A stretch of DNA of 64,000 nucleotides from Patescibacteria group bacterium (GTDB taxonomy: Bacteria > Patescibacteriota > CPR2 > UBA1875): positions 32,001 through 96,000 of the forward strand of contig JBGSRK010000005.1 of NCBI GenBank assembly GCA_041737595.1, given 5' to 3'. This document shows positions 23,776 to 64,000 of this stretch, piece after piece. The first letter of the stretch is position 1. Each line of letters starts with the position of its first letter. A program made the translations under genes and the position numbers. The notes under the pieces were generated by a model, which ran no database searches, was not told the origin of the DNA, and worked only from the letters and a program-made list of their open reading frames with translations.

Positions 23776-23801
23776 ACTTTACTAATGTACATTAGTAAAG
23801 T
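23776..23801. repeat. 26-bp perfect palindrome
   Basis: ACTTTACTAATGTACATTAGTAAAGT. Confidence 0.85.
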
Positions 23802-23821
23802 GCTTTTTTATAAAAAGCAAT

Positions 23822-23854
23822 AGACCGGCCTCGCGAAATCGCGAAGACCGGTCT
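23822..23854 (-). terminator. GC-rich 3' hairpin of unit 1a
   Basis: AGACCGG..TCGCGA/TCGCGA..CCGGTCT, followed by ATTGCTTTTT on minus. Confidence 0.7.
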
Positions 23855-23861
23855 TTACTTG

Positions 23862-24152
23862 TTATACCTCATACACGCACATCGTTACTTCGCCCAGACA
23901 AGCTGGTGCTTCAGCATGATATATCTTGCCTGTAGCGTGCACTTCGATTCGATAATGTAGAGTTACTCCTTCAAGATTACCGGAAAGAAGTGTGAACGAC
24001 CCCTTAATTGAATCAAGAAGATTGCGCTCATAGAGAGCATCAAGCAACTCTCTTCTAACTCGAATCGTTCCATTTGTTGTCTCTTTACCATCGGCCCGAT
24101 AGACCTTTGTGAAAAGTGGTTCCCTGTTGGAAACCGCAGCATCTGTCCCCAT
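23862..24152 (-). CDS. Hypothetical protein (GC-rich unit 1a), 96 aa
   Basis: SD AAGGGGG, own promoter and 3' hairpin. Confidence 0.7.
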   Translation of the reverse strand: MGTDAAVSNREPLFTKVYRADGKETTNGTIRVRRELLDALYERNLLDSIKGSFTLLSGNLEGVTLHYRIEVHATGKIYHAEAPACLGEVTMCVYEV

Positions 24153-24230
24153 CTCGTTACCCCCTTAAACTGATGGAATGAGTTTTTTCGACATATGCTG
24201 TGGTGCTTGAGGCATTTAACAAGCAAAACA

Positions 24231-24259
24231 ATAATAACTTTAATTTTGAGCCACGTCAA
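24231..24259 (-). promoter_or_regulatory. sigma70-like promoter of unit 1a
   Basis: TTGACG-17-TATTAT. Confidence 0.7.
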
Positions 24260-24286
24260 GCCAATATTATATTAACTTAGAAAAAC

Positions 24287-24312
24287 ACCCTAGGTATATT
24301 TCAACCTAGGGT
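24287..24312 (-). terminator. 3' hairpin of unit 1b
   Basis: ACCCTAGGT-8-ACCTAGGGT then GTTTTT on minus. Confidence 0.7.
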
Positions 24313-24334
24313 AGTTGCTCAACCAACGAGGCTT

Positions 24335-24664
24335 TCACCGATGTATCCTTGGATCAATTTGGGAAGTGAGTTCAAAATCAAAATACCTTATCTTCCCCTC
24401 CCCTTCACAAACAGTCCGGTAGACACAGTTGAACCTTCGCCCCTTGTTTCCAATTTCGAAGACTCCAACCGAAGTCTGAAACGCCTCAGCCCGGGAACCA
24501 AGTCGAATCCCGAACTTAGCCAACGTTCTACGTGCCTCGGCTACTATTTCGGTACACGATTGGCATGGATCTTTCCCGACAAGAGGGACCGTAATGATGC
24601 CATAGTTGGTCCTTCTATAACCAGAAGTGTCGCACTCCATCTTGAGCCTCCTCACGTCGCCCAT
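24335..24664 (-). CDS. Hypothetical protein with CxxC (unit 1b)
   Basis: Overlaps upstream ORF end; ends just before the 3' hairpin. Confidence 0.6.
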   Translation of the reverse strand: MGDVRRLKMECDTSGYRRTNYGIITVPLVGKDPCQSCTEIVAEARRTLAKFGIRLGSRAEAFQTSVGVFEIGNKGRRFNCVYRTVCEGEGKIRYFDFELTSQIDPRIHR

Positions 24665-24939
24665 TGCTTGAGTATGACATTACCATCCTTGAGTGAACAT
24701 GAATACACCGACATAAGGATGCCGGTTCGGGAATGAACCTGAATTCTGACAACTTGTGATAGATATCCACTTCGTGGGACGATGTTCTTATTGACATCGA
24801 ATGCACGAAATGACGTATCGCACTCGCTATCAGGAAGGCCATACCCATTGGAACGAATACGACGAAGTTCAGTGAAGACACACTCGAGCATATCTTCGTC
24901 AGGGCAACCTATGAGCTCAATGTTTATAGGCTCATTCAT
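24652..24939 (-). CDS. Hypothetical protein (unit 1b)
   Basis: Start MNEPINI at 24939 with GAGGT SD and ATGA overlap with upstream ORF. Confidence 0.62.
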   Translation of the reverse strand: MNEPINIELIGCPDEDMLECVFTELRRIRSNGYGLPDSECDTSFRAFDVNKNIVPRSGYLSQVVRIQVHSRTGILMSVYSCSLKDGNVILKQWAT

Positions 24940-25214
24940 GCTGCCACCTCTTCGATACCCGAGATAGTATACCAAGCTTTCACCTGGTAAGTACTATCTG
25001 TCTTTTCGACACGAGCTTCCACCTTTTGACCATCCGTATTAGTAAAATCAATACGAATGATTTTCTTGATGACGATTTTGACACTTACTGTCTTAAAACC
25101 GTAAACAAGAAGTAGAAGCTTCTCACAAGCAAGAGTCAGGGTACATATTTCTTTTGCGGTTGGACGTCCAGCTGAGGACTCAATCGCAAGATCAAGAATG
25201 TTATTCACATCCAT
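24936..25214 (-). CDS. Hypothetical protein (unit 1b)
   Basis: Start MDVNN at 25214 after AAGGGGGG; TATAAT at 25263-25258. Confidence 0.62.
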   Translation of the reverse strand: MDVNNILDLAIESSAGRPTAKEICTLTLACEKLLLLVYGFKTVSVKIVIKKIIRIDFTNTDGQKVEARVEKTDSTYQVKAWYTISGIEEVAA

Positions 25215-25297
25215 TTTGAGCCCCCCTTGGGTTCCTACCGTCTCTGACGTTATCGGCATTATATACCAAAAAAACTAATTTTAAAAGAATAAAAAAC

Positions 25298-25325
25298 AAA
25301 AAAAGCAGCTTTCGCTGCTTTTTTT
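25298..25325 (-). terminator. Intrinsic terminator after rpsJ
   Basis: A-tract GCAGC-TTTC-GCTGC T-tract. Confidence 0.8.
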
Positions 25326-26994: not shown

Positions 26995-27023
26995 ATTCTA
27001 TTATAATTTGAGTTGATTTGCAA
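26995..27023 (-). promoter_or_regulatory. tuf promoter
   Basis: TTGCAA-17-TAGAAT; TTATCCACA at 26946-26954 in the leader. Confidence 0.65.
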
Positions 27024-27045
27024 GTATTTTTATCTAAAATGACAG

Positions 27046-27067
27046 GACCCCGCCGGTTGGCGGGGTC
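27046..27067 (-). terminator. GC-rich 3' hairpin of unit 2
   Basis: GACCCCGCC-4-GGCGGGGTC; weak U-tract. Confidence 0.6.
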
Positions 27068-27088
27068 AATGGACAAGAAGAGGATCAT

Positions 27089-27265
27089 TCAGTCGAGGTG
27101 CATGTATGAAAAGGCTGCGTCACGTTCTTCGCGAAAAGTGCGTACCTTCGGCGAAACCAGTGATGCCAACCAAATCGGAAATTCGATCAGCATACACATA
27201 ATCGCGCTGAGTACGACGAGAGTGATCAAAACCGAATCGATCACCCATTCTTTGAATCTAAACAT
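27089..27265 (-). CDS. Small membrane protein, 58 aa (unit 2; not in ORF track)
   Basis: GGGAGG SD; MFRFKEWVIDSVLITLVVLSAIMCMLIEFPIWLASLVSPKVRTFREERDAAFSYMHLD*. Confidence 0.7.
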   Translation of the reverse strand: MFRFKEWVIDSVLITLVVLSAIMCMLIEFPIWLASLVSPKVRTFREERDAAFSYMHLD

Positions 27266-27275
27266 AGCGGCCTCC

Positions 27276-27596
27276 CTATCCTAGGCCCATTTCGTTGAGC
27301 TCGTCGAGAGTCGAGTTGTAGTCGGGCTCAAAGTTCGGTTTGATGAAACGGCCATGAATTCGAGATTCTTCGAGTTCCCTCACAAGCATATCATGTGCGG
27401 GCTTGTTGTGACATTGAGTACAAACGCTCGGCGACTCAAAGTCACAGTCGATACAGATCGCCGGATCAGGCCTGCCGGAGTTCTTTGCTCGCAACAGACG
27501 GATGACTCCGCCTGCCACAACTACTACAAAAGCGACCAAAAGAACCAAAACGATGGCACCTTCGGTTGTCGAGATAAGACCAATGAACCTCCCCAT
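27276..27596 (-). CDS. TM protein with CxxC-x7-CxxC (unit 2)
   Basis: GGGAGG SD, one TM, CIDC/CTQC. Confidence 0.72.
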   Translation of the reverse strand: MGRFIGLISTTEGAIVLVLLVAFVVVVAGGVIRLLRAKNSGRPDPAICIDCDFESPSVCTQCHNKPAHDMLVRELEESRIHGRFIKPNFEPDYNSTLDELNEMGLG

Positions 27597-27647
27597 GTTT
27601 CCTCCCTTAGGTTCGCACGGATTTACACCGTGAATATTAATACGATT

Positions 27648-27675
27648 ATTATATAATATTTTTAAAATAATTCAA
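27648..27675 (-). promoter_or_regulatory. sigma70-like promoter of unit 2
   Basis: TTGAAT-16-TATAAT. Confidence 0.6.
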
Positions 27676-27681
27676 TAACAC

Positions 27682-27708
27682 AAAAAGAGCCCACATGGGC
27701 TCTTTTTT
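27682..27708 (-). terminator. Intrinsic terminator after fusA
   Basis: AAAAAGAGCCCA-CA-TGGGCTCTTTTT. Confidence 0.8.
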
Positions 27709-38207: not shown

Positions 38208-38298
38208 AAAAATACGGCTCCCTTTCCATGTAGGAGTTAGTTAATATTCCCTTTTAATAAAAACGCCTCTTGTAGAACTAAACTGTTAGGCACTAGAA

Positions 38299-38327
38299 AT
38301 TGTAACCGACTTTTTCCACAGTGTCAA
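38299..38327 (-). promoter_or_regulatory. rpoB promoter
   Basis: TTGACA-17-TACAAT. Confidence 0.75.
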
Positions 38328-38343
38328 TATTTTTTTAAAAGCA

Positions 38344-38370
38344 AAGGGCCACACGTATTGTGTGGCCCTT
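38344..38370 (-). terminator. GC-rich 3' hairpin of unit 3
   Basis: AAGGGCCACAC-5-GTGTGGCCCTT then TGCTTTT on minus. Confidence 0.7.
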
Positions 38371-38382
38371 GCCATGAATTGG

Positions 38383-38934
38383 TTATTTGGTGTCGATTTG
38401 TGTCCCAGTACTAATCGTCCCCCTTGGGACAATGAAATAGTACTCTGTCCCTCCGTAAACCTCTTGCCATTCGAAATTCAAACCGCAAGAGTTGAAAACA
38501 AATTCATGCCACCAACCATTCTTCGCATAACGACGGATAGCGAAAAGCCTTCTCTCAAGTCGTGGCAAGGTCACAGAGTCCTGTTCCTGAATATAGATCG
38601 GGTATTCTTTCTTGACCAACGTTTGTTGGACAATTCCTTTGTCTGTGTTGAAGGCATAGAAATACGTTGGTGTTGCACCGACAGTACCACAACCGAGAAA
38701 GATATCACCGCTTGCATTAGCACTATCGGAGAGTGCAACTAGGTGTGTAGTATAGACGACTGGCTTCGATTCTTCAATTGAAGCATTGTTACCCGCCCAA
38801 ATGAGGAAAAAGAAGAATATTGCCATCAATATTGAGAAACCACAACCTAAACAGCCATTCCACTCTTCCCAGAACATTAGAACGAAGAAACCAATAATGC
38901 CCACAACAATAACAGCGCTCAAGGACCAACCCAT
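38383..38934 (-). CDS. Hypothetical 2-TM membrane protein (unit 3)
   Basis: Start MGWSL at 38934 after GGAGG; two N-terminal TM helices. Confidence 0.72.
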   Translation of the reverse strand: MGWSLSAVIVVGIIGFFVLMFWEEWNGCLGCGFSILMAIFFFFLIWAGNNASIEESKPVVYTTHLVALSDSANASGDIFLGCGTVGATPTYFYAFNTDKGIVQQTLVKKEYPIYIQEQDSVTLPRLERRLFAIRRYAKNGWWHEFVFNSCGLNFEWQEVYGGTEYYFIVPRGTISTGTQIDTK

Positions 38935-38973
38935 GGCTACCCTCCAATCAAAGTGCACCTTTTGGTCAAGCTG

Positions 38974-52705: not shown

Positions 52706-52958
52706 GAGTATACCTAAATATTAATATGACATTTGTTAAAGAAATTGTACCTGCAAAAAGGTTTGTGAAAATTAAAGCTAAATCGTTTAGATGAACCCCA
52801 TAGATAAACCATAAAATATTTGCCATAACTAAAAGAATAAACATAGGGAGTGAAACATCTTTCGCACTTTTATGTTTTACTATTTTATAGACTTGAGGTA
52901 ATGCACTTATTATTACTAAAAAACCGCCAATATATGCAAGTATTTGATATGGATCCAT
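52692..52958 (-). CDS. SemiSWEET/PQ-loop transporter
   Basis: LPQVYK...SAKDVS, LW.IYG, 3 TM. Confidence 0.88.
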   Translation of the reverse strand: MDPYQILAYIGGFLVIISALPQVYKIVKHKSAKDVSLPMFILLVMANILWFIYGVHLNDLALIFTNLFAGTISLTNVILIFRYTHGKN

Positions 52959-53009
52959 AAAACAATTATCAAGTACTCTTAATTGAATTACAAGTGTACA
53001 AAAATAAGG

Positions 53010-53042
53010 CGGACCCCGACGACAATATGTCGAAGGGGTCCG
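53010..53042 (-). terminator. GC-rich 3' hairpin of unit 4
   Basis: CGGACCCC..CGACA/TGTCG..GGGGTCCG. Confidence 0.65.
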
Positions 53043-53141
53043 TTTGGTATCAACTCAGCAGGATTCTCAGGGAGGCCAAGAATTCTTTTCACCCCAGATG
53101 AGGGACTGAGCGACGCCAGAGTATTCAGTTTTTGGGATTGC

Positions 53142-53354
53142 CTAGAACCGTGCGAGTATGCGGAAGAGCTGAAAAGCGAAGAACCCTCCAAAGAGAATTA
53201 TCATCGCAAGCCCTCCGAACAGAAACTCGAACCGTTCTTTACCTTCATTTCTTACGGCGAGGTATATCATGCGAAGGCCGAAACCCAACATGACTACCAT
53301 CCCCGCCCCCAAAAGGGCGGCAAAGACAATCAATTCGTTCACTGATATTTCCAT
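53142..53354 (-). CDS. Small 2-TM membrane protein, 70 aa (unit 4)
   Basis: GAGAGG SD; two hydrophobic helices. Confidence 0.7.
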   Translation of the reverse strand: MEISVNELIVFAALLGAGMVVMLGFGLRMIYLAVRNEGKERFEFLFGGLAMIILFGGFFAFQLFRILARF

Positions 53355-53471
53355 GGTTCTTGCCTCTCTCTTACTACGACTACTAGTGTGATTAATCTAC
53401 GACTTTAGCTTCGTTGCGTACTCCTTTCCGCTTTAGGCGGGGTTGGACACGGCGAGAGACACTCGACCAAT

Positions 53472-53500
53472 ATATTATCATATATTATATATTATGTCAA
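53472..53500 (-). promoter_or_regulatory. sigma70-like promoter of unit 4
   Basis: TTGACA-17-TAATAT. Confidence 0.65.
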
Positions 53501-58964: not shown

Positions 58965-58989
58965 AAAAAAGACCCTTCTGGGTCTTTTT
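58965..58989 (-). terminator. Intrinsic terminator after rplS
   Basis: AAAAAAGACCC-TTCT-GGGTCTTTTT. Confidence 0.75.
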
Positions 58990-59671
58990 ATTTTTCAGTT
59001 GGAGTTTCTTCTACTACTTTTTCCGCGTTTTTACCAATTGAATCTTTCTCTTTTGGTTGTTCTTCTTCGGCTTTTTCAACCCCTGCATTTGTTTCTTTCA
59101 CTTCATCTACTTGGTGATCAATATCTTCGGAATCTTCATCTTTTTTATCTTCAGATTCAGCTTCTTTTATTTCGGCTTTTTCAACCTCTTCTAGTGGGAC
59201 TTCTTCTGATTCAGCTTCTGCAACCTGTTGTTCTGATAGTTCTGTAATTTCTGCATCCGTTGGTTCTTCTTTTACTTCTGATGTTTTTTCTGGTTCTTCT
59301 TCAGATACATTAACTGCAAGCGCGTCAAACCCCTTTTCTCGTAAACGTGCTGATTTACCTTGAAGTTTTCTAAGATATGTAAGATAAGCTTGTCTGACTT
59401 TTGCACGTTTTTTTATTTCAATTTTTGCTATGTTTGGTGAATATAATGGATAACTTTTTTCGATACCAACTCCGAAAGATATTTTTCTTACTAAAAATGT
59501 TTTCTTTAAACCACTACCACTTACTTTAAGCACAACTCCTTCAAAAATCTGAATACGTTCTTTATTCCCCTCTTTGATTTTTTGATGTACACGAACAGTA
59601 TCGCCAGACTTTAATGCTGGGATTTTTTTCAGGTATTTTTCTTCAACTTTTTGGACAAGTGTAGTATTCAT
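58988..59671 (-). CDS. rplS: 50S ribosomal protein bL19 with long acidic extension
   Basis: [30 protein letters not shown]. Confidence 0.96.
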
Positions 59672-59692
59672 AAGATTATTCTTTGCCGTAAG

Positions 59693-59721
59693 ATAATATC
59701 AAAAATTAGAGTAAGAGTCAA
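59693..59721 (-). promoter_or_regulatory. rplS promoter
   Basis: TTGACT-17-TATTAT. Confidence 0.68.
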
Positions 59722-59746
59722 TAAAAATGTCTTTTTACATAGAGTG

Positions 59747-59771
59747 CGAGCCGCCCCGAAGGGGCGGCTCG
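59747..59771 (-). terminator. GC-rich 3' hairpin of unit 5
   Basis: CGAGCCGCCCC-3-GGGGCGGCTCG; no immediate U-tract. Confidence 0.55.
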
Positions 59772-59960
59772 TTTCCGACAAAGAGTCGGTCTGGTGTCAT
59801 CGTTACCCTACCCTGAGGGATTAGAATCCCAAGGGCAACGTACCAGACGAAAAGGTCCTCAGGGCTTTCGGGGACTTGCATTTTCGTCCAATTTCCGGCT
59901 TACGCCAGAATGACAATTGCGCGAATGCGCTAGCCCATTTTGAGTGGGCAGAAGTAGTTC
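59772..59960 (-). ncRNA. Unassigned highly structured RNA (3' region of unit 5)
   Basis: Six consecutive stem-loops, one with a GTAA tetraloop; no ORF. Confidence 0.65.
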
Positions 59961-59963
59961 ACG

Positions 59964-60107
59964 TTAGGTAGTCTCTGACACTTTCTGCTTTGCTCTCTTG
60001 TTGGGGTTTGAAAACCTTCCCTCAAGAATAGCAATAACGAACAGAGCGAGACCAATGAAGCCAATGATAGCAGCTACAATATAAGCTGCAATTCCCAAGG
60101 GGATCAT
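59964..60107 (-). CDS. Small TM peptide, 47 aa (unit 5; not in ORF track)
   Basis: MIPLGIAAYIVAAIIGFIGLALFVIAILEGRFSNPNKRAKQKVSETT*, 6 nt after the upstream stop. Confidence 0.65.
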   Translation of the reverse strand: MIPLGIAAYIVAAIIGFIGLALFVIAILEGRFSNPNKRAKQKVSETT

Positions 60108-60113
60108 CTTTCG

Positions 60114-60521
60114 TCACAGATCCAGTGACTTGCGTCGATACTCGTCCGGCTCGTTGTAGCCGAGAAATGAATCCGACTCAACGGGCTCACATTCGAACCT
60201 TGGATGATTCGGACAAGTATCGTTGTGACAGTAGGGAGTCTTGAAACCCTTGACAGCCCCAGGAGCGATTCTCCCAAGACTAGTTTGGACACGAATGACT
60301 TTGTTCGCAAGACAAGGGACAAGTGCTCCATGCTCGCAAACGGTGCCATTCTTACCTGCGATTGCGATTGCCATGCAAGCATCGAGAACAACGTCTGGAT
60401 CGTTTCTGTAATCCTCATTCTCGAATTTGAGGAGTGAAAGACCCATTTCTGAAGCAGCTGAAATGGCGTGATTATCCCCAGCCTTTGCTGCTTCAAGTAG
60501 TTCGTGTAATTCTTTGTGCAT
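60114..60521 (-). CDS. Cys/His-rich hypothetical protein (unit 5)
   Basis: Start MHKEL at 60521 after AGGAGG; CEH..C and C.N.TC..H...C. Confidence 0.7.
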   Translation of the reverse strand: MHKELHELLEAAKAGDNHAISAASEMGLSLLKFENEDYRNDPDVVLDACMAIAIAGKNGTVCEHGALVPCLANKVIRVQTSLGRIAPGAVKGFKTPYCHNDTCPNHPRFECEPVESDSFLGYNEPDEYRRKSLDL

Positions 60522-60538
60522 GATTCCTCCTGGTGTGA

Positions 60539-60886
60539 TTAGGCCGTCGCGAATGATGCGTCGGCCTGGGCTGCAACTTGGGGGATAGGCACGATATTGA
60601 TGATGGCCGTGCCACAATTCTGGCACATACCTTCTTCGTAGGCAAGCCGGGTGGCTTCCTGGTGGCACCGATGTGATTCTGTCTTGACAGAACTCGCACA
60701 TTCGGGGCAACCACCTTCATAGTAGAAGGTACGCTTCATCTTGCGTGAAACACGACATTTCGAACGAACGACGCCAAGCTTGAAGCTCGCGTCGTTGAGC
60801 GAAAGTGCCATTTCGGTCAGAGTTGGCCCTTGGATTGGCTCAGTCTGATCGCCACGCAAACGATTCCGGGGAATCTTGTCGGACAT
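60539..60886 (-). CDS. Zn-finger-like hypothetical protein (unit 5)
   Basis: GGGAGG SD; CPEC, HRCH, CQNC. Confidence 0.68.
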   Translation of the reverse strand: MSDKIPRNRLRGDQTEPIQGPTLTEMALSLNDASFKLGVVRSKCRVSRKMKRTFYYEGGCPECASSVKTESHRCHQEATRLAYEEGMCQNCGTAIINIVPIPQVAAQADASFATA

Positions 60887-60999
60887 AACGCTTCCTCCCT
60901 CTAGTCTCTGGTTTTCCTTCCTAGGAACCCAGAGAAACTAGGGACCTGCTGGAATTACCATTGCATCACTCCTCTCACACTCCGTGAGCCTTTTCGGCT

Positions 61000-61221
61000 C
61001 TACATTTTATACCACTCACCAACCCCGATAAGGTTGACAAGGGTATGCCACTGAACCTCCCACCAATCACCTAGTGACTTTCGTGCACTCGGGGTAGTCG
61101 TTAGGTATTGAATATACCCAGCAGCAATCAAGATGAATGAACAGGCGATTATAGTAATCGCTATGTTGAGTCCCTCCTTGGGGAAAGAAATCCCCAAGAG
61201 AATAATATCATTAGTAATCAT
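61000..61221 (-). CDS. Small TM protein (unit 5)
   Basis: GGAGGAG SD; one TM. Confidence 0.68.
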   Translation of the reverse strand: MITNDIILLGISFPKEGLNIAITIIACSFILIAAGYIQYLTTTPSARKSLGDWWEVQWHTLVNLIGVGEWYKM

Positions 61222-61299
61222 GGCTCCTCCATTGACGTGAACTAATTGACAAGTTACTAGAAGTACCCCTATCTAGGAATACGAATTCTCGAAGACCAA

Positions 61300-61328
61300 A
61301 TCATATCATATTTGAGCTTAAAAGTCAA
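61300..61328 (-). promoter_or_regulatory. sigma70-like promoter of unit 5
   Basis: TTGACT-17-TATGAT. Confidence 0.72.
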
Positions 61329-61358
61329 TTATCGCTATATTTTTTATGTATTAAAAGT

Positions 61359-64000
61359 CTACTCTCTTCTAGAAAGTAATGCGTTTATTTCTTCAATTAA
61401 GTTTTTATCAAATTCTATTCCAAAAGGCATTTTTACTTTTTTAGGTTCTCCGCCATTGGGCAATAAAACATAAGTTTCAGTCTCACCTTTATTCCTAGCA
61501 AGAAGTAACTTAAGTGTCGATAAATCTGATGGGGTTACACCTCGCGGGACATCAATAATTGCGTTATCATCCAATTGAACAAAATTAGTACTCGGTTTTT
61601 TTATTTCAACTACTTTATTTTTCAAATCTTCAATTGTATCAACTAAAATTTTTAACTGATTATCTTTGTTGTTTATCTTCCCCTTTATATATAAAATTTT
61701 CCCTTCAATAATTATACTTTGAAACTTTTCCAATGTATTAGGGAATATAATTAGTTCAGTTGTACCTGTTTTATCTTCAAACATAGCAAAAACCATCGGA
61801 TCATTTTTACGCGTCAAAATCTTATGCAATGATGTAATTACCCCAACTAATTTTGTATCTGTCCCCTCTTTATCAGTAGAAAGATCAGCAATCGCATCTA
61901 CATTTAAAGATAAAATTTTCTCACGATGTGAATCTAGTGGATGTTCTGAAAAATATATTCCAAGAAGTTCTTTTTCAAAACCCAATTTTTCTTCTGAGGT
62001 TAACTGCTCTTCTGGCTCAACAAGCAGAAGTTCGTGAGCAACCCCATTTTCTTTTGTTGCTTCTCCAAACAGACCAAGTTGACCATCTGCAGTACCTTTT
62101 TGAACTTGTTGTGCAAAAGTAAGAATCTTTTCAAGATTAAATAAAAGTGTCGAACGATCATTCATATTATCAAATGCCCCACATTTAATTAATGATTCAA
62201 TTACTTTTTTATTTATCTCACTTGCTTTTACTCTCATACAAAAATCTTCAATTGATTTGAATTTACCATCTTTTTCTCGTGCTTCAAGTATGGCCTCAAC
62301 AATTCCTGTCCCTACATTTTTTATTGCCTTCATGCCAAATCGAATCCCATTTGTTTTTGGGACAACTGCAAATTCAGAAAATGATTCATTCACATCCGGG
62401 CCAAGAACTTGAATTTTCATGGATTGAGCCTCAGAAACTTCGATTGTAATACGATCAATATTTTGATAATCAGATGTCATAAGAGCCGCCATAAAAGCGG
62501 ATGGATAGTAAGCCTTAAGATATGCTGTCCAATAAGAAATAAGAGCATATGAGGCCGCGTGAGACTTATTAAAGGCATATGCAGCGAATGATTCCATCCC
62601 ATCAAAAATCTTATTGGAAAGTTTTTCATCCGCACCACTTGTCTCTTTTGCTCCTTTTACAAATTCTTCTCTCATTTGAGTAAGCATTGATGCAATCTTT
62701 TTCCCCATCGCCTTTCTTAAGGTGTCAGCCTGTCCACCAGTAAAACCTGAAAAATCTTTAGAAATCTGCATAACTTGTTCCTGATAAACCATAATACCGT
62801 AAGTATTTTTTAAGGCTTCTTCCATTTTTGGATGTTCATAATTTATAGGTTTTCTTCCATGTTTACGGTCAATAAACTCTGGGATATTTTCCATTGGACC
62901 TGGACGATAAAGTGAAATCATCGCGACAATATCTTCAAAACAGTTTGGTTTAAGCTCTTTAATATATCTTTTCATCCCTGATGATTCGAGTTGGAAAACT
63001 CCTGTTGTTTGCCCTTTTGCGAGAAGTTTATAGGTTTTTTCATCATCAAGTGGGAGTTTTGAAAGTTCGATTTCTTTCCCATAAACTTTTTTAATAATTC
63101 GAAGTGCATTTTTAAGTACAGTTAAATTTGAAAGCCCTAAAAAGTCCATTTTAAGTAGCCCTAAATCTTCTATAGCGTGCATTTCGTACTGGGTATTAGT
63201 TGAAATGTCCCCTTTTGTTGCTTTTTGAAGTGGAGTGTAGTTTATAAGATCCTTGGGAGCAATAACAACTCCGGCGGCATGAGTTGATGAATGACGGGCA
63301 ACTCCCTCAAGTCTTTGAGCTAAATCTAATAGTTTTTTATAATTACCGCCTTGTTTGTAAAAAGCTGCAAGCTCTGGGACTTCTTTGATTGATTTTGCAA
63401 GTGGTAGATTAGATGGAATCACCTTTGCTACTTCGTCAACTTCTGTATAGGGCATACCAAGGACTCGGCCTGTATCACGAACTGCATTACGTGCTGCCAT
63501 GGTCCCAAAAGTAATAATCTGAGCTACTTTTTCTTTACCATATTTTTCAACTACATATTGGATAACTTCATGACGTCTGTCGTCCGCGAAATCCATATCA
63601 AAATCTGGCATAGATATACGATCTGGATTTAAAAATCTTTCAAAAAGTAAATCATATTTAAGTGGGTCAAGTTCTGTAATATTCATTGCATAAGCAACAA
63701 TAGAGCCAGCTCCAGAACCACGGCCTGGGCCTACCAATATTCCATTATCTTTTGCCCAATTTACATAATCTGCTACAACTAAGAAATATTCCTCATATTT
63801 CATACGTTCGATAACTTCAAGTTCATATGCTGCTCTATCTTTTATCTCTTTTGTAATTTTCTCATATCTTTCCGCAAGGCCGCGAACAACCAACTTTTCC
63901 ATATAACTTTTTTTTGTTTCGCCTTTAGGGATATCAAAATTAGGAATTAATATTTCATTTTTTTCTGCAAAGGGTAAATAAAATTCTTCGGAAAAAGGTT
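61359..64000 (-). CDS. dnaE: DNA polymerase III alpha subunit (5' end outside window)
   Basis: GPGRGSGAGS, FERFLNPDR.SMPDFD.D, FNKSH; frame open to window edge. Confidence 0.97.
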   Translation of the reverse strand, partial: PFSEEFYLPFAEKNEILIPNFDIPKGETKKSYMEKLVVRGLAERYEKITKEIKDRAAYELEVIERMKYEEYFLVVADYVNWAKDNGILVGPGRGSGAGSIVAYAMNITELDPLKYDLLFERFLNPDRISMPDFDMDFADDRRHEVIQYVVEKYGKEKVAQIITFGTMAARNAVRDTGRVLGMPYTEVDEVAKVIPSNLPLAKSIKEVPELAAFYKQGGNYKKLLDLAQRLEGVARHSSTHAAGVVIAPKDLINYTPLQKATKGDISTNTQYEMHAIEDLGLLKMDFLGLSNLTVLKNALRIIKKVYGKEIELSKLPLDDEKTYKLLAKGQTTGVFQLESSGMKRYIKELKPNCFEDIVAMISLYRPGPMENIPEFIDRKHGRKPINYEHPKMEEALKNTYGIMVYQEQVMQISKDFSGFTGGQADTLRKAMGKKIASMLTQMREEFVKGAKETSGADEKLSNKIFDGMESFAAYAFNKSHAASYALISYWTAYLKAYYPSAFMAALMTSDYQNIDRITIEVSEAQSMKIQVLGPDVNESFSEFAVVPKTNGIRFGMKAIKNVGTGIVEAILEAREKDGKFKSIEDFCMRVKASEINKKVIESLIKCGAFDNMNDRSTLLFNLEKILTFAQQVQKGTADGQLGLFGEATKENGVAHELLLVEPEEQLTSEEKLGFEKELLGIYFSEHPLDSHREKILSLNVDAIADLSTDKEGTDTKLVGVITSLHKILTRKNDPMVFAMFEDKTGTTELIIFPNTLEKFQSIIIEGKILYIKGKINNKDNQLKILVDTIEDLKNKVVEIKKPSTNFVQLDDNAIIDVPRGVTPSDLSTLKLLLARNKGETETYVLLPNGGEPKKVKMPFGIEFDKNLIEEINALLSRRE

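What the first reader, a model, noticed from the sequence alone, without database searches (positions are those of the whole stretch)
59772..59960. ~190-nt unassigned multi-hairpin RNA with possible pseudoknot at the 3' end of unit 5
On the minus strand, consecutive stems: GCCCA/UGGGC; GCGC/GCGC; UUCUGGC-GUAA-GCCGGAA (GNRA loop); GACGAAAA...UUUUCGUC; CUGGU-CGUUGCCCU-GGGAUU/AAUCCC...AGGGUAACG-ACCAG; CCGAC/GUCGG; then the terminal hairpin. CCCUGAGG in the fourth element is complementary to CCUCAGGG in the fifth, giving a pseudoknot or alternative fold. It matches no tRNA, tmRNA, SRP, RNase P or 6S pattern I can recognise. Candidate ribozyme, packaging/export signal or protein-binding RNA (inference).
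Basis: partly seen in the sequence, partly recalled or inferred. Interest (0 to 1): 0.75.

Follow-up and report, generated by a model that had tools for sequence, protein, structure and literature searches.

The report
Hairpin-rich gene tail holding a repeat
The hairpin-rich stretch is the untranslated tail of a small foreign-looking gene cluster, and its centre is a worn copy of a widespread DNA hairpin repeat rather than a new kind of RNA.

Summary
The stretch folds better than shuffles: 59772-59960 gives -70.3 kcal/mol, z -4.26, 0 of 200. No Rfam family matches.

The fold is not exceptional for its setting, because 120-nt windows in the coding part of the same GC-rich island reach z -5.55. 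The proposed pseudoknot is an 8-nt complement also seen in 50 of 300 shuffles.

The 119-nt centre (59796-59914) is closed by GTCAT/ATGAC. Its first hairpin is an arm of the SRM/NTS repeat class, the single-stranded-DNA targets of small GIY-YIG Ssn nucleases (PMC11893778):
- Its first 20 nt recur in more than 119 places in many phyla.
- A covariance model built from 22 other arms finds it as the only significant hit in the window (21.2 bits, E 4e-4).
- The genome holds 44 such hits and 7 small GIY-YIG frames.

This copy lacks the conserved C after the hairpin and has no mirrored second arm. No homologue of the tail was found, so covariation could not be tested.

Verdict: a structured 3' tail containing a variant SRM element. 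An RNA role is neither shown nor excluded.

The parts
59933..59949 (-). Small hairpin A (GCCCA, 7-nt loop, UGGGC), 14 nt after the stop of the last ORF
   Evidence: Sequence. Present in the minimum-energy fold. The two 5' hairpins together give z -3.27, 2 of 200.
59919..59930 (-). Small hairpin B (GCGC, AUUC loop, GCGC)
   Evidence: Sequence; minimum-energy fold.
59888..59915 (-). SRM/NTS-like arm: TGTCAT flank, a 7-bp stem with one U-G pair, a GUAA loop, then GAAATTGG where the family has GAATC
   Evidence: Covariance model R1, built from 22 arms with other stem sequences, scores 21.2 bits, E 4.1e-4; it is the only window hit below E 0.5. It ranks 17th of 44 hits in the genome. An HMM of the genome's own arms has its best window hit here, E 0.04. 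The first 20 nt recur in more than 119 places in public genomes. It fits the published SRM pattern with one substitution, at the conserved C.
59796..59914 (-). 119-nt four-way junction: closing helix GUCAU/AUGAC, hairpin 1 (the SRM arm), and hairpins P3 and P4
   Evidence: RNA fold -46.2 kcal/mol, z -3.52, 1 of 200. Closing pairs have probability 0.66-0.96. With DNA parameters: z -2.73 (5 of 200) on this strand and -1.99 (8 of 200) on the other, and the closing helix is not in the DNA minimum-energy fold. The layout matches two-armed SRM elements of 47-114 nt in other genomes.
59843..59891 (-). P3: long hairpin (GACGAAAA/UUUUCGUC, with U-G and G-U pairs at its base and a GUCC/GGAC tip)
   Evidence: Pair probabilities 0.81-0.99. 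Alone it gives z -1.62, 14 of 200. Not found anywhere else.
59801..59842 (-). P4: nested hairpin (CGUUGCCCU/AGGGUAACG around GGGAU/AUCCC), directly abutting AUGAC
   Evidence: z -4.07, 0 of 200; inner helix probability 0.81-1.0. Neither the HMM nor the covariance model recognises it as an SRM arm on either strand. Its 20-nt core has no exact match in viral contigs.
59775..59789 (-). Small hairpin D (CCGAC, UCUUU loop, GUCGG)
   Evidence: Sequence; minimum-energy fold.
59747..59771 (-). Terminal 11-bp GC hairpin with no U run after it; presumed 3' end or terminator of the island's transcript
   Evidence: The terminator scan did not call it, because no T-rich tail follows. The best Rfam near-match (E 1.1) is to this hairpin only.
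59964..61221 (-). Four small ORFs of the GC-rich island: 61221-61000 (73 aa, membrane-like), 60886-60539 (115 aa, zinc-ribbon-like), 60521-60114 (135 aa, Cys/His-rich) and 60107-59964 (47 aa, membrane-like)
   Evidence: ORF list. GC about 50% against about 33% in the flanks. Pfam gives only sub-threshold zinc-ribbon matches. The 135-aa protein has 3 relatives among 1.84 billion representatives.
61300..61328 (-). Promoter-like site of the island (TTGACT, 17 nt, TATGAT, with TG)
   Evidence: 10 of 12 matches.
59693..59721 (-). Promoter-like site of rplS, directly after the tail (TTGACT, 17 nt, TATTAT, with TG)
   Evidence: 10 of 12 matches.

Best explanation
The stretch is the roughly 190-nt untranslated 3' tail of a 1.5-kb GC-rich transcription unit of four small ORFs, lodged between dnaE and rplS.

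The tail is a string of hairpins. Its 119-nt centre is a variant of the Ssn-related motif (SRM/NTS) class of palindromic DNA repeats. It has the GTCAT flank, a GNRA-capped hairpin and a closing ATGAC. Where typical elements have a mirrored second arm, this one has two unrelated hairpins, and the conserved C after the first hairpin is missing.

Inferred mechanism, not shown here. Such arms act as DNA: when the strand is single-stranded they fold and are bound and cut nearby by small GIY-YIG nucleases, of which this genome has seven candidates. Because this copy lacks the key C, it is probably a worn or altered copy carried along in the tail. Once transcribed, the hairpins and the terminal 11-bp GC hairpin most likely only end or protect the 3' end of the island's mRNA, as other intergenic palindromes do.
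For: Position.
- The tail lies between the last ORF's stop (59964) and the rplS promoter (59721-59693). The island has its own promoter at 61328-61300.

Repeat family in this genome.
- GTCAT-hairpin-ATCTAGAT-hairpin-ATGAC elements are common.
- There are 29 HMM hits at E <= 0.01, all on low-GC contigs, and 44 covariance-model hits at E <= 1.

Published class (PMC11893778; outline, passages, and sections 8 and 10 read).
- The paper defines NTS and SRM.
- It shows cutting of single-stranded DNA only, not RNA or duplex DNA.
- It notes the link to small GIY-YIG genes.

This copy.
- It is the only significant window hit of model R1, which was built from 22 arms that do not share its stem: 21.2 bits, E 4.1e-4, next best 11.3 bits.
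- It is the best window hit of an HMM built from the genome's own arms with this site excluded: E 0.04.
- Its first 20 nt occur in more than 119 stretches of public genomes. Of the 82 sites in the 80 loci delivered, 50 continue with (A/G)GAATC. Of the 72 sites that close the hairpin, 37 have a partner-type end within 110 nt.

Layout.
- Elements with the same layout, including composite ones of 92-114 nt with foreign GC hairpins, are seen in L010, L037 and L060.
- ATGAC directly abuts P4, just as GTCAT directly abuts hairpin 1.

Nuclease candidates.
- Seven GIY-YIG matches lie in open frames of 84-130 aa; their first-ATG reading is.
- Two of the seven have arms within 500 nt.

A relative.
- G025 (same order) has a TTGTCATTCTGGCG-type two-armed element in the tail of its own dnaE-rplS insert.
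Against: - The conserved C right after the palindrome is absent. The paper names it the base most important for SsnA binding. The model alignment deletes three positions there.
- No second SRM arm is detected on the other strand.
- The published SRM pattern matches only with one substitution. That relaxed test is uninformative: 1.9 matches per shuffled window, and 22% of shuffled islands have at least one.
- With the whole genome as search space, the HMM hit would not be significant. This is my scaling's E-value; the site appears only among the 56 hits at E <= 1.
- P3 and P4 make up about two thirds of the centre and are explained by nothing known.
- The fold is better on the transcribed strand (z -4.26 against -2.70; 7 G-U pairs of 73). 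This fits an RNA-level role as well.
- With DNA parameters the closing helix is not in the minimum-energy fold.
- SRM arms are not enriched at GC-island edges: 6 of 56 lie within 300 nt, against 12% of random positions.
- Whether the seven GIY-YIG proteins belong to the Ssn clade (cd10448) could not be tested. NCBIfam gave no match above its cutoff and the structure database gave none.
Confidence: 0.55

Rival explanations
1. It is a functional structured RNA in its own right, such as a 3'-UTR regulatory or stability element, a 3'-UTR-derived small RNA, or an unknown ribozyme or protein-binding RNA. It merely contains, or evolved from, an SRM-like hairpin.
For: - It folds better than shuffles on the transcribed strand (z -4.26, 0 of 200) and less well on the other strand (z -2.70).
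- G-U pairs at the base of P3 and in hairpin 1 would be mismatches on the other strand.
- P4 alone gives z -4.07.
- The tails of 10 of 10 inserts examined at or upstream of rplS, in G000 and 9 relatives, are also strongly structured, z -3.5 to -9.2.
Against: - There is no Rfam match, even at E <= 10 with lax filters.
- No second copy or homologue was found in the genome, in 60 relatives, in phage or plasmid collections, or in the viral-contig pattern scan. There is therefore no covariation evidence.
- Coding parts of the island fold as strongly.
- The tails of relatives share no sequence with this one.
- The pseudoknot is within chance.
Confidence: 0.2
2. It has no specific function. It is a GC-rich leftover, such as decayed coding sequence or assorted insertions, whose hairpins are by-products. 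Only the terminal hairpin matters, as a transcript end.
For: - The whole island shows negative folding z-scores, with several coding windows at -3.5 to -5.5.
- The SRM arm is degenerate.
- A 48-aa ORF with no family match overlaps the tail.
- The other GC islands read in the window have short tails of about 10-40 nt before their terminal hairpin, so a long tail is not needed.
Against: - The exact junction geometry, with GTCAT and ATGAC each abutting a hairpin with no spacer, together with a significant match to the SRM model, is unlikely for random leftover sequence.
- z is -4.26 for the stated coordinates.
Confidence: 0.2
3. It is the recombination or mobilisation end of a mobile cassette, in the manner of an integron attC site or a nuclease-nicked hairpin. 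This would explain why different cargo occupies the same dnaE-rplS slot in related genomes.
For: - 9 of 17 genomes with dnaE directly upstream of rplS carry inserts of 0.85-1.95 kb, with largely unrelated cargo; 8 have gaps of 216 nt or less.
- In G025 the insert has SRM arms at both ends.
- The Ssn paper's discussion (passages read) notes that NTS-gene-NTS resembles an insertion sequence.
Against: - Only 2 of the 10 inserts examined (G000 and G025) have arms with E <= 0.015; the next best are E 0.15 and above.
- There is no arm at this island's 5' edge.
- Arms are not enriched at island edges genome-wide.
- Read directly from the sequence, there are no attC-type core sites.
- None of the island's four main ORFs, nor the 48-aa ORF overlapping the tail, gave a Pfam match to an integrase or transposase.
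- The two runs that hold the region show one identical form and no joint lacking the island.
Confidence: 0.05

Closest known systems
Ssn-related motifs (SRM) / Neisseria Transformation Sequence (NTS, containing dRS3) with SsnA-type GIY-YIG single-stranded-DNA nucleases (Chenal et al. 2025, PMC11893778)
   Same: A GTCAT flank directly before a GC-rich palindromic hairpin with a short loop. The repeat is multi-copy in the genome and co-occurs with small single-domain GIY-YIG genes. It often comes as two inverted arms closed by GTCAT/ATGAC.
   Different: This copy lacks the conserved C after the palindrome. It has no mirrored second arm and instead carries two unrelated long hairpins. It fails the strict published pattern. 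Activity of the local nucleases is untested. The paper's experiments are on Neisseria and Wolbachia proteins, not on this phylum.
REP/BIME intergenic palindromes of enterobacteria (recalled from general knowledge, not from a call; the Ssn paper's discussion draws the same parallel)
   Same: Short palindromic repeats that sit after genes, are transcribed into 3' ends, and are linked to a dedicated nuclease or transposase-like protein. They can protect upstream mRNA from 3' decay.
   Different: A different sequence family and a different associated protein. An effect on mRNA here is only inferred.
Intrinsic (Rho-independent) terminators
   Same: A stable GC hairpin at the end of a transcription unit (59747-59771).
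   Different: No U run follows it. The host's own genes nearby, after fusA and rpsJ, end in classical hairpin-plus-T-run terminators.
Minimal mobile elements of Neisseria: conserved gene pairs between which different cassettes are found (recalled, not from a call)
   Same: The dnaE-rplS slot holds different small cassettes in different related genomes, and SRM-type repeats occur there in 2 of the 10 inserts examined.
   Different: Exchange by transformation and flanking homology is not shown here. These are different genera, not strains.

Membership tests
SRM/NTS repeat (Ssn-related motif) | Conserved 5' flank HGTCWY directly before the hairpin | tested here: met
   TGTCAT at 59915-59910 abuts the stem. 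It aligns to model R1 positions 1-8.
SRM/NTS repeat (Ssn-related motif) | GC-rich palindromic stem with a short loop | tested here: met
   UUCUGGC-GUAA-GCCGGAA has 7 pairs including one U-G, with pair probabilities 0.25-1.0. Seven of the 8 model pairs are formed.
SRM/NTS repeat (Ssn-related motif) | Conserved C immediately after the palindrome (RNCYNB), the base most important for SsnA binding | tested here: not met
   The sequence reads GGAAATTGG. It is the one substitution against the published pattern, and the model alignment deletes three positions here. The importance of this base is taken from section 8 of PMC11893778.
SRM/NTS repeat (Ssn-related motif) | Exact match to the published degenerate search pattern | tested here: not met
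   There is no exact match in the window. A match appears with one substitution, but that criterion gives 1.9 +/- 1.3 matches per shuffled window.
SRM/NTS repeat (Ssn-related motif) | Many copies in the same genome | tested here: met
   44 model hits at E <= 1, with this one ranked 17th. 29 HMM hits at E <= 0.01, all on low-GC contigs.
SRM/NTS repeat (Ssn-related motif) | Genome encodes small single-domain GIY-YIG proteins of the Ssn clade (cd10448), some flanked by the repeats | tested here: inconclusive
   Seven PF01541 matches above cutoff lie in open frames of 84-130 aa. Two of the seven have arms within 500 nt. Clade cd10448 is in none of the libraries on hand; NCBIfam gave no match above its cutoff and the structure database gave none.
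SRM/NTS repeat (Ssn-related motif) | Inverted partner arm closing the element (common, but not required by the paper) | tested here: inconclusive
   ATGAC at 59800-59796 pairs with GTCAT (probability 0.66-0.96) and abuts P4. However, P4 is not recognised as an arm.
SRM/NTS repeat (Ssn-related motif) | Bound and cut as single-stranded DNA by the cognate nuclease | not testable with these tools
   This needs purified protein and oligonucleotides.
Any Rfam family (ribozymes, riboswitches, small RNAs, leaders) | Covariance-model score at or above the curated gathering score | tested here: not met
   No match at gathering score. The best match at E <= 10 is 20.9 bits against a cutoff of 55, E 1.1, mainly on the terminal hairpin.
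Intrinsic terminator | GC-rich hairpin followed by a U run | tested here: not met
   The hairpin is present at 59747-59771, but the tail is GCACUCUAUGU. The scan did not call it.
Integron attC site | Core sites RYYYAAC and GTTRRRY at the two ends of an imperfect palindrome | tested here: not met
   Read directly from the sequence: no GTTRRRY occurs on either strand of 59740-59965. No attC model was run.

The most novel reading that the evidence does not exclude
The tail may be the working end of an undescribed kind of small GC-rich cassette found in very small, AT-rich bacterial genomes.

The same dnaE-rplS slot holds 0.85-1.95-kb inserts with largely unrelated small-protein cargo in 9 of 17 related genomes. 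All ten tails folded, from G000 and 9 relatives, are unusually structured (z -3.5 to -9.2). In two of them the tail carries SRM arms.

On this reading the multi-hairpin tail would be what lets such cassettes be inserted, exchanged or expressed next to strong housekeeping promoters. The SRM half-arm may be the site nicked by the GIY-YIG nucleases.
Probability: 0.12. Interest if true: 0.65.

Novelty: new variant of a known kind. Interest (0 to 1): 0.3.

Why it matters
The result turns an 'unknown RNA' candidate into something more ordinary: a structured 3' tail whose core derives from a recently described class of DNA hairpin repeats. This saves effort on ribozyme assays.

It also shows that SRM-type repeats and candidate Ssn-like nucleases are numerous in a roughly 1-Mb genome of a phylum whose proteins were not among those the paper assayed (it tested Neisseria and Wolbachia homologues). 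In that genome the repeats occur in composite, half-degenerate forms that the published search pattern misses.

If the tail did turn out to act as RNA, or as a cassette end, it would bear on how tiny symbiont-like genomes take up and express foreign small genes.

Tried and rejected
**Searches for the tail or island elsewhere**
- Second copy of the tail in its own genome: none. The next hit is the terminal hairpin's own reverse strand.
- Island DNA in 60 relatives: only a 30-nt match in G060, which proved to be an ordinary SRM arm. Its shared 8-nt 5' flank is not seen in the other loci.
- Phage and plasmid collections with distant blastn: no match.
- Exact 20-nt core of P4 in viral contigs: 0 matches.

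**Protein route to related loci**
- The 135-aa ORF has one close relative (66% identity) and two distant ones.
- The 115-aa ORF found nothing, not even itself.
- The search for related loci found no locus with either alignment A1 or A2: A1 was run in the metagenome, viral and genome collections, and A2 in the metagenome and viral collections. The contig that encodes the close relative could therefore not be read.

**Sequencing runs**
- No RNA holder is listed.
- Two DNA runs of one study hold the region. One may be the source. The other is identical over the tail (0 other letters, 59715-60176).
- There is therefore no variation for a covariation test, and no joint that lacks the island.

**Ideas tested and dropped**
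- SRM arms marking the edges of GC islands: rejected. 6 of 56 arms lie within 300 nt of an island, against 12% of random positions; within 1000 nt it is 20 of 56 against 20%.
- The published SRM pattern with one substitution as a membership test: rejected as uninformative.
- A covariance model from the genome's own 20 arms (alignment A3): abandoned because the alignment put pairs in inconsistent columns. I used the gap-free alignment A4 instead.
- Homology between this island's ORFs and those of the same-family insert in G004: none, best E 0.22.
- Rfam on 9 relatives' loci: no match at E <= 0.1.

**A known weakness**
- The HMM was built from 42 regex-picked arms. By eye, about 4 of them are probably not true arms, and I did not remove them.

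Full report
**What is there**

On the minus strand, the last ORF of a GC-rich island stops at 59964. A non-coding stretch then runs to a promoter-like site for rplS at 59721-59693.

The minimum-energy RNA fold has these parts:
- two small hairpins, 59933-59949 and 59919-59930;
- a 119-nt four-way junction, 59796-59914, closed by GUCAU/AUGAC, holding hairpin 1 (UUCUGGC-GUAA-GCCGGAA), P3 (59843-59891) and P4 (59801-59842);
- a small hairpin, 59775-59789;
- an 11-bp GC hairpin, 59747-59771, with no U run after it.

**Is it more than chance?**

- Stated coordinates: -70.3 kcal/mol against -51.96 +/- 4.31 for 200 dinucleotide shuffles, z -4.26, none as good.
- The junction alone: z -3.52, 1 of 200.
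- The opposite strand as RNA: z -2.70, 1 of 200.
- With DNA parameters the junction gives z -2.73 and -1.99 on the two strands.

The stretch is therefore really structured, and more so on the transcribed strand. Three cautions apply.
- In 48 sliding 120-nt windows over 59500-61499, coding parts of the same island reach z -5.55, -4.12 and -3.75. Windows inside the finding that cut across the junction give only -0.75 to -1.45.
- The 'pseudoknot' pair CCCUGAGG/CCUCAGGG lies inside P3 and P4 and costs 8.6 kcal/mol when forced. A perfect 8-bp complement appears in 50 of 300 shuffles.

**Known RNA families**

Rfam at gathering score finds only five tRNAs elsewhere in the window. A lax search of 59300-60500 at E <= 10 gives seven weak matches, best E 1.1, mainly on the terminal hairpin. 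ARAGORN finds nothing here.

**Setting**

The window is part of a 1.09-Mb, 143-contig assembly. Its long contigs have about 33% GC. The many short high-GC contigs look like contamination.

The region 59740-61250 has about 50% GC. It has its own promoter-like site at 61328-61300 and four small ORFs with good ribosome-binding sites: 73, 115, 135 and 47 aa. It lies between dnaE and rplS, all on one strand. Pfam gives only sub-threshold zinc-ribbon matches.

**The link to a known DNA repeat**

- *The repeat in this genome.* Scanning the genome for the motif that opens the junction showed a repeat family: GTCAT, hairpin, ATCTAGAT, hairpin, ATGAC, with variable stems.
- *The published class.* A literature search on these motifs led to Chenal et al. 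2025 (PMC11893778). I read the outline, passages, and sections 8 and 10.
  - The paper defines the Neisseria NTS repeat and a degenerate 'Ssn-related motif' (SRM).
  - It shows that small single-domain GIY-YIG proteins (SsnA) bind the hairpin and cut a few bases upstream.
  - Cutting occurs only on single-stranded DNA of one orientation, not on RNA or duplex DNA.
  - The C right after the palindrome matters most for binding.
- *Pattern test.* Hairpin 1 with its flank fits the SRM pattern with one substitution, at exactly that C. This relaxed test is not informative on its own: 1.9 matches per shuffled window.
- *Stronger tests.*
  - An HMM of the genome's own arms, with this site excluded, has its best window hit here, E 0.04.
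  - The first 20 nt of the arm occur in more than 119 stretches of public genomes from many phyla.
  - Of 82 sites in the 80 loci delivered, 50 continue with (A/G)GAATC. Of the 72 sites that close the hairpin, 37 have a partner-type end within 110 nt.
  - A covariance model built from 22 arms that do not carry this stem (18 partner arms from other genomes, 4 from this genome) finds this site as the only significant hit in the 64-kb window with filters off: 21.2 bits, E 4.1e-4, next best 11.3 bits.
  - In the whole genome that model gives 44 hits at E <= 1, and this one ranks 17th.
- *Nuclease candidates.* The genome has eight GIY-YIG matches, seven of them in open frames of 84-130 aa. Two of the seven have arms within 500 nt. 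Whether they belong to the Ssn clade could not be tested.

**How far the likeness goes**

Typical two-armed elements in other genomes are GTCAT, hairpin 1, a central helix (ATCCAG...CTGGAT), hairpin 2, ATGAC. That is a four-way junction of 47-114 nt, and some carry foreign GC hairpins. The finding's centre has the same layout, and GTCAT and ATGAC each abut a hairpin with no spacer.

It differs in three ways. P4 is not an SRM arm by either model. P3 and P4 match nothing else. The key C is missing. I therefore call it a variant or worn derivative, not a regular member.

**Comparative evidence**

No sequence related to the tail was found. The 135-aa ORF has only three relatives among 1.84 billion representatives, and none could be located on DNA I could read. 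Two DNA runs of one study hold the region with no differences in the tail, and no RNA holder is listed. Covariation and expression are therefore untested.

**Relatives**

L19 was found in 23 of 28 genomes of the order, G000 included. dnaE lies directly upstream of rplS in 17 of them, again including G000.
- Eight have gaps of about 75-216 nt: G024, G027, G026, G012, G014, G006, G011 and G005.
- Nine have inserts of 846-1954 nt with 41-53% GC: G016, G010, G020, G018, G004, G008, G015, G025 and G000.
- G002, G001, G021 and G013 end at contig edges. G019 was not fetched. G022 has another neighbour.

The inserts fall into a few groups related by DNA. This island's ORFs show no similarity to those of G004, which is in the same family.

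All ten tails folded, from G000 and 9 relatives, are strongly structured, z -3.5 to -9.2. None has an Rfam match (nine loci). Only G025 shares the SRM feature, with one arm just after dnaE and a two-armed TTGTCATTCTGGCG-type element in its tail. Genome-wide, SRM arms are not enriched at GC-island edges.

**Reading**

- *Most likely (0.55).* The stretch is a structured 3' tail that has taken in, or kept, a degenerate SRM element. The arm's natural role is as a hairpin in single-stranded DNA recognised by GIY-YIG nucleases. This copy may no longer be recognised. As RNA, the hairpins probably only end or protect the transcript. All of these steps are inferred.
- *Rivals.* A dedicated functional RNA (0.2), functionless leftover sequence (0.2), and a cassette recombination end (0.05).

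The paper's supplementary tables were not seen.

Noticed in passing
window 23800-25300, 27000-27700, 38290-38960, 52950-53500, 59740-61250: Five GC-rich islands (45-54% against about 33%) sit between conserved housekeeping genes: rpsJ and its downstream neighbour, fusA/tuf, clpP/rpoB, clpC/a small membrane protein gene, and dnaE/rplS. All are on the gene strand. Where I read the sequence (the first two and the last), each has its own promoter-like site, small orphan ORFs (often membrane-like or Cys-rich), and a terminal GC hairpin without a U run. On the ten long contigs, 66 such islands cover 7.4% of the bases, and some of these may be rRNA.
   Followed up: partly
loci L136/L156, L140, L142, L144, L145, L150, L153, L154 (relatives), upstream of rplS: The dnaE-rplS gap holds inserts of 0.85-1.95 kb with largely unrelated small ORFs in 9 of 17 genomes of the order, and is 216 nt or less in the other 8. 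The tails of all ten inserts folded (G000 and 9 relatives) have folding z -3.5 to -9.2.
   Followed up: partly
L150 (G025), positions in the extracted insert 38-67 and 1179-1259: This relative's insert has an NTS-like arm right after dnaE and a two-armed SRM element just before the rplS promoter. That is the repeat-gene-repeat layout the Ssn paper describes.
   Followed up: partly
L150 and L153 (5' leaders of the inserts); L144, L145 and L142 likewise: Inserts of related genera share conserved, apparently structured 5' leaders of about 100 nt between promoter and first ORF (blastn 74% over 114 nt between G015 and G025). There is no Rfam match at E <= 0.1.
   Followed up: no
window 60114-60116 and 59964-60107: The TGA stop of the 135-aa ORF aligns with a W in its closest relative, and one distant relative also ends in WE. 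The 47-aa membrane-like ORF follows in the same frame after two codons, so read-through would give a 185-aa protein with a C-terminal membrane anchor. Housekeeping ORFs in the window are intact under table 11.
   Followed up: no
G000 contigs C54:8536-8799, C67:30884-31171, C113:522-809, C36:54600-54893, C108:55984-56247, C21:9337-9669, C108:113415-113666: There are seven small GIY-YIG ORFs in a 1.09-Mb genome. Those on C67 and C36 sit among clusters of SRM arms.
   Followed up: partly
G000, many contigs of 1.5-13 kb: Dozens of short contigs have 55-72% GC against 32-37% for the long contigs. This is probably binning contamination. All SRM-arm HMM hits at E <= 0.01 lie on low-GC contigs.
   Followed up: no
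window 60620-60860 and 61100-61220, minus strand: Coding parts of the island fold far better than shuffles (z -3.75 to -5.55 in 120-nt windows). This is unexplained.
   Followed up: no
window 61300-61335 and 59690-59725: The island's promoter-like site and the rplS promoter-like site are alike beyond the hexamers. By my own count by eye, about 27 of 37 positions match, which might mean a duplicated promoter at the insertion point. The fusA/tuf island shows no such likeness.
   Followed up: no
window 58988-59671: Ribosomal protein L19 is 227 aa long, with a long acidic C-terminal extension. Relatives have open frames of 207-254 aa.
   Followed up: no
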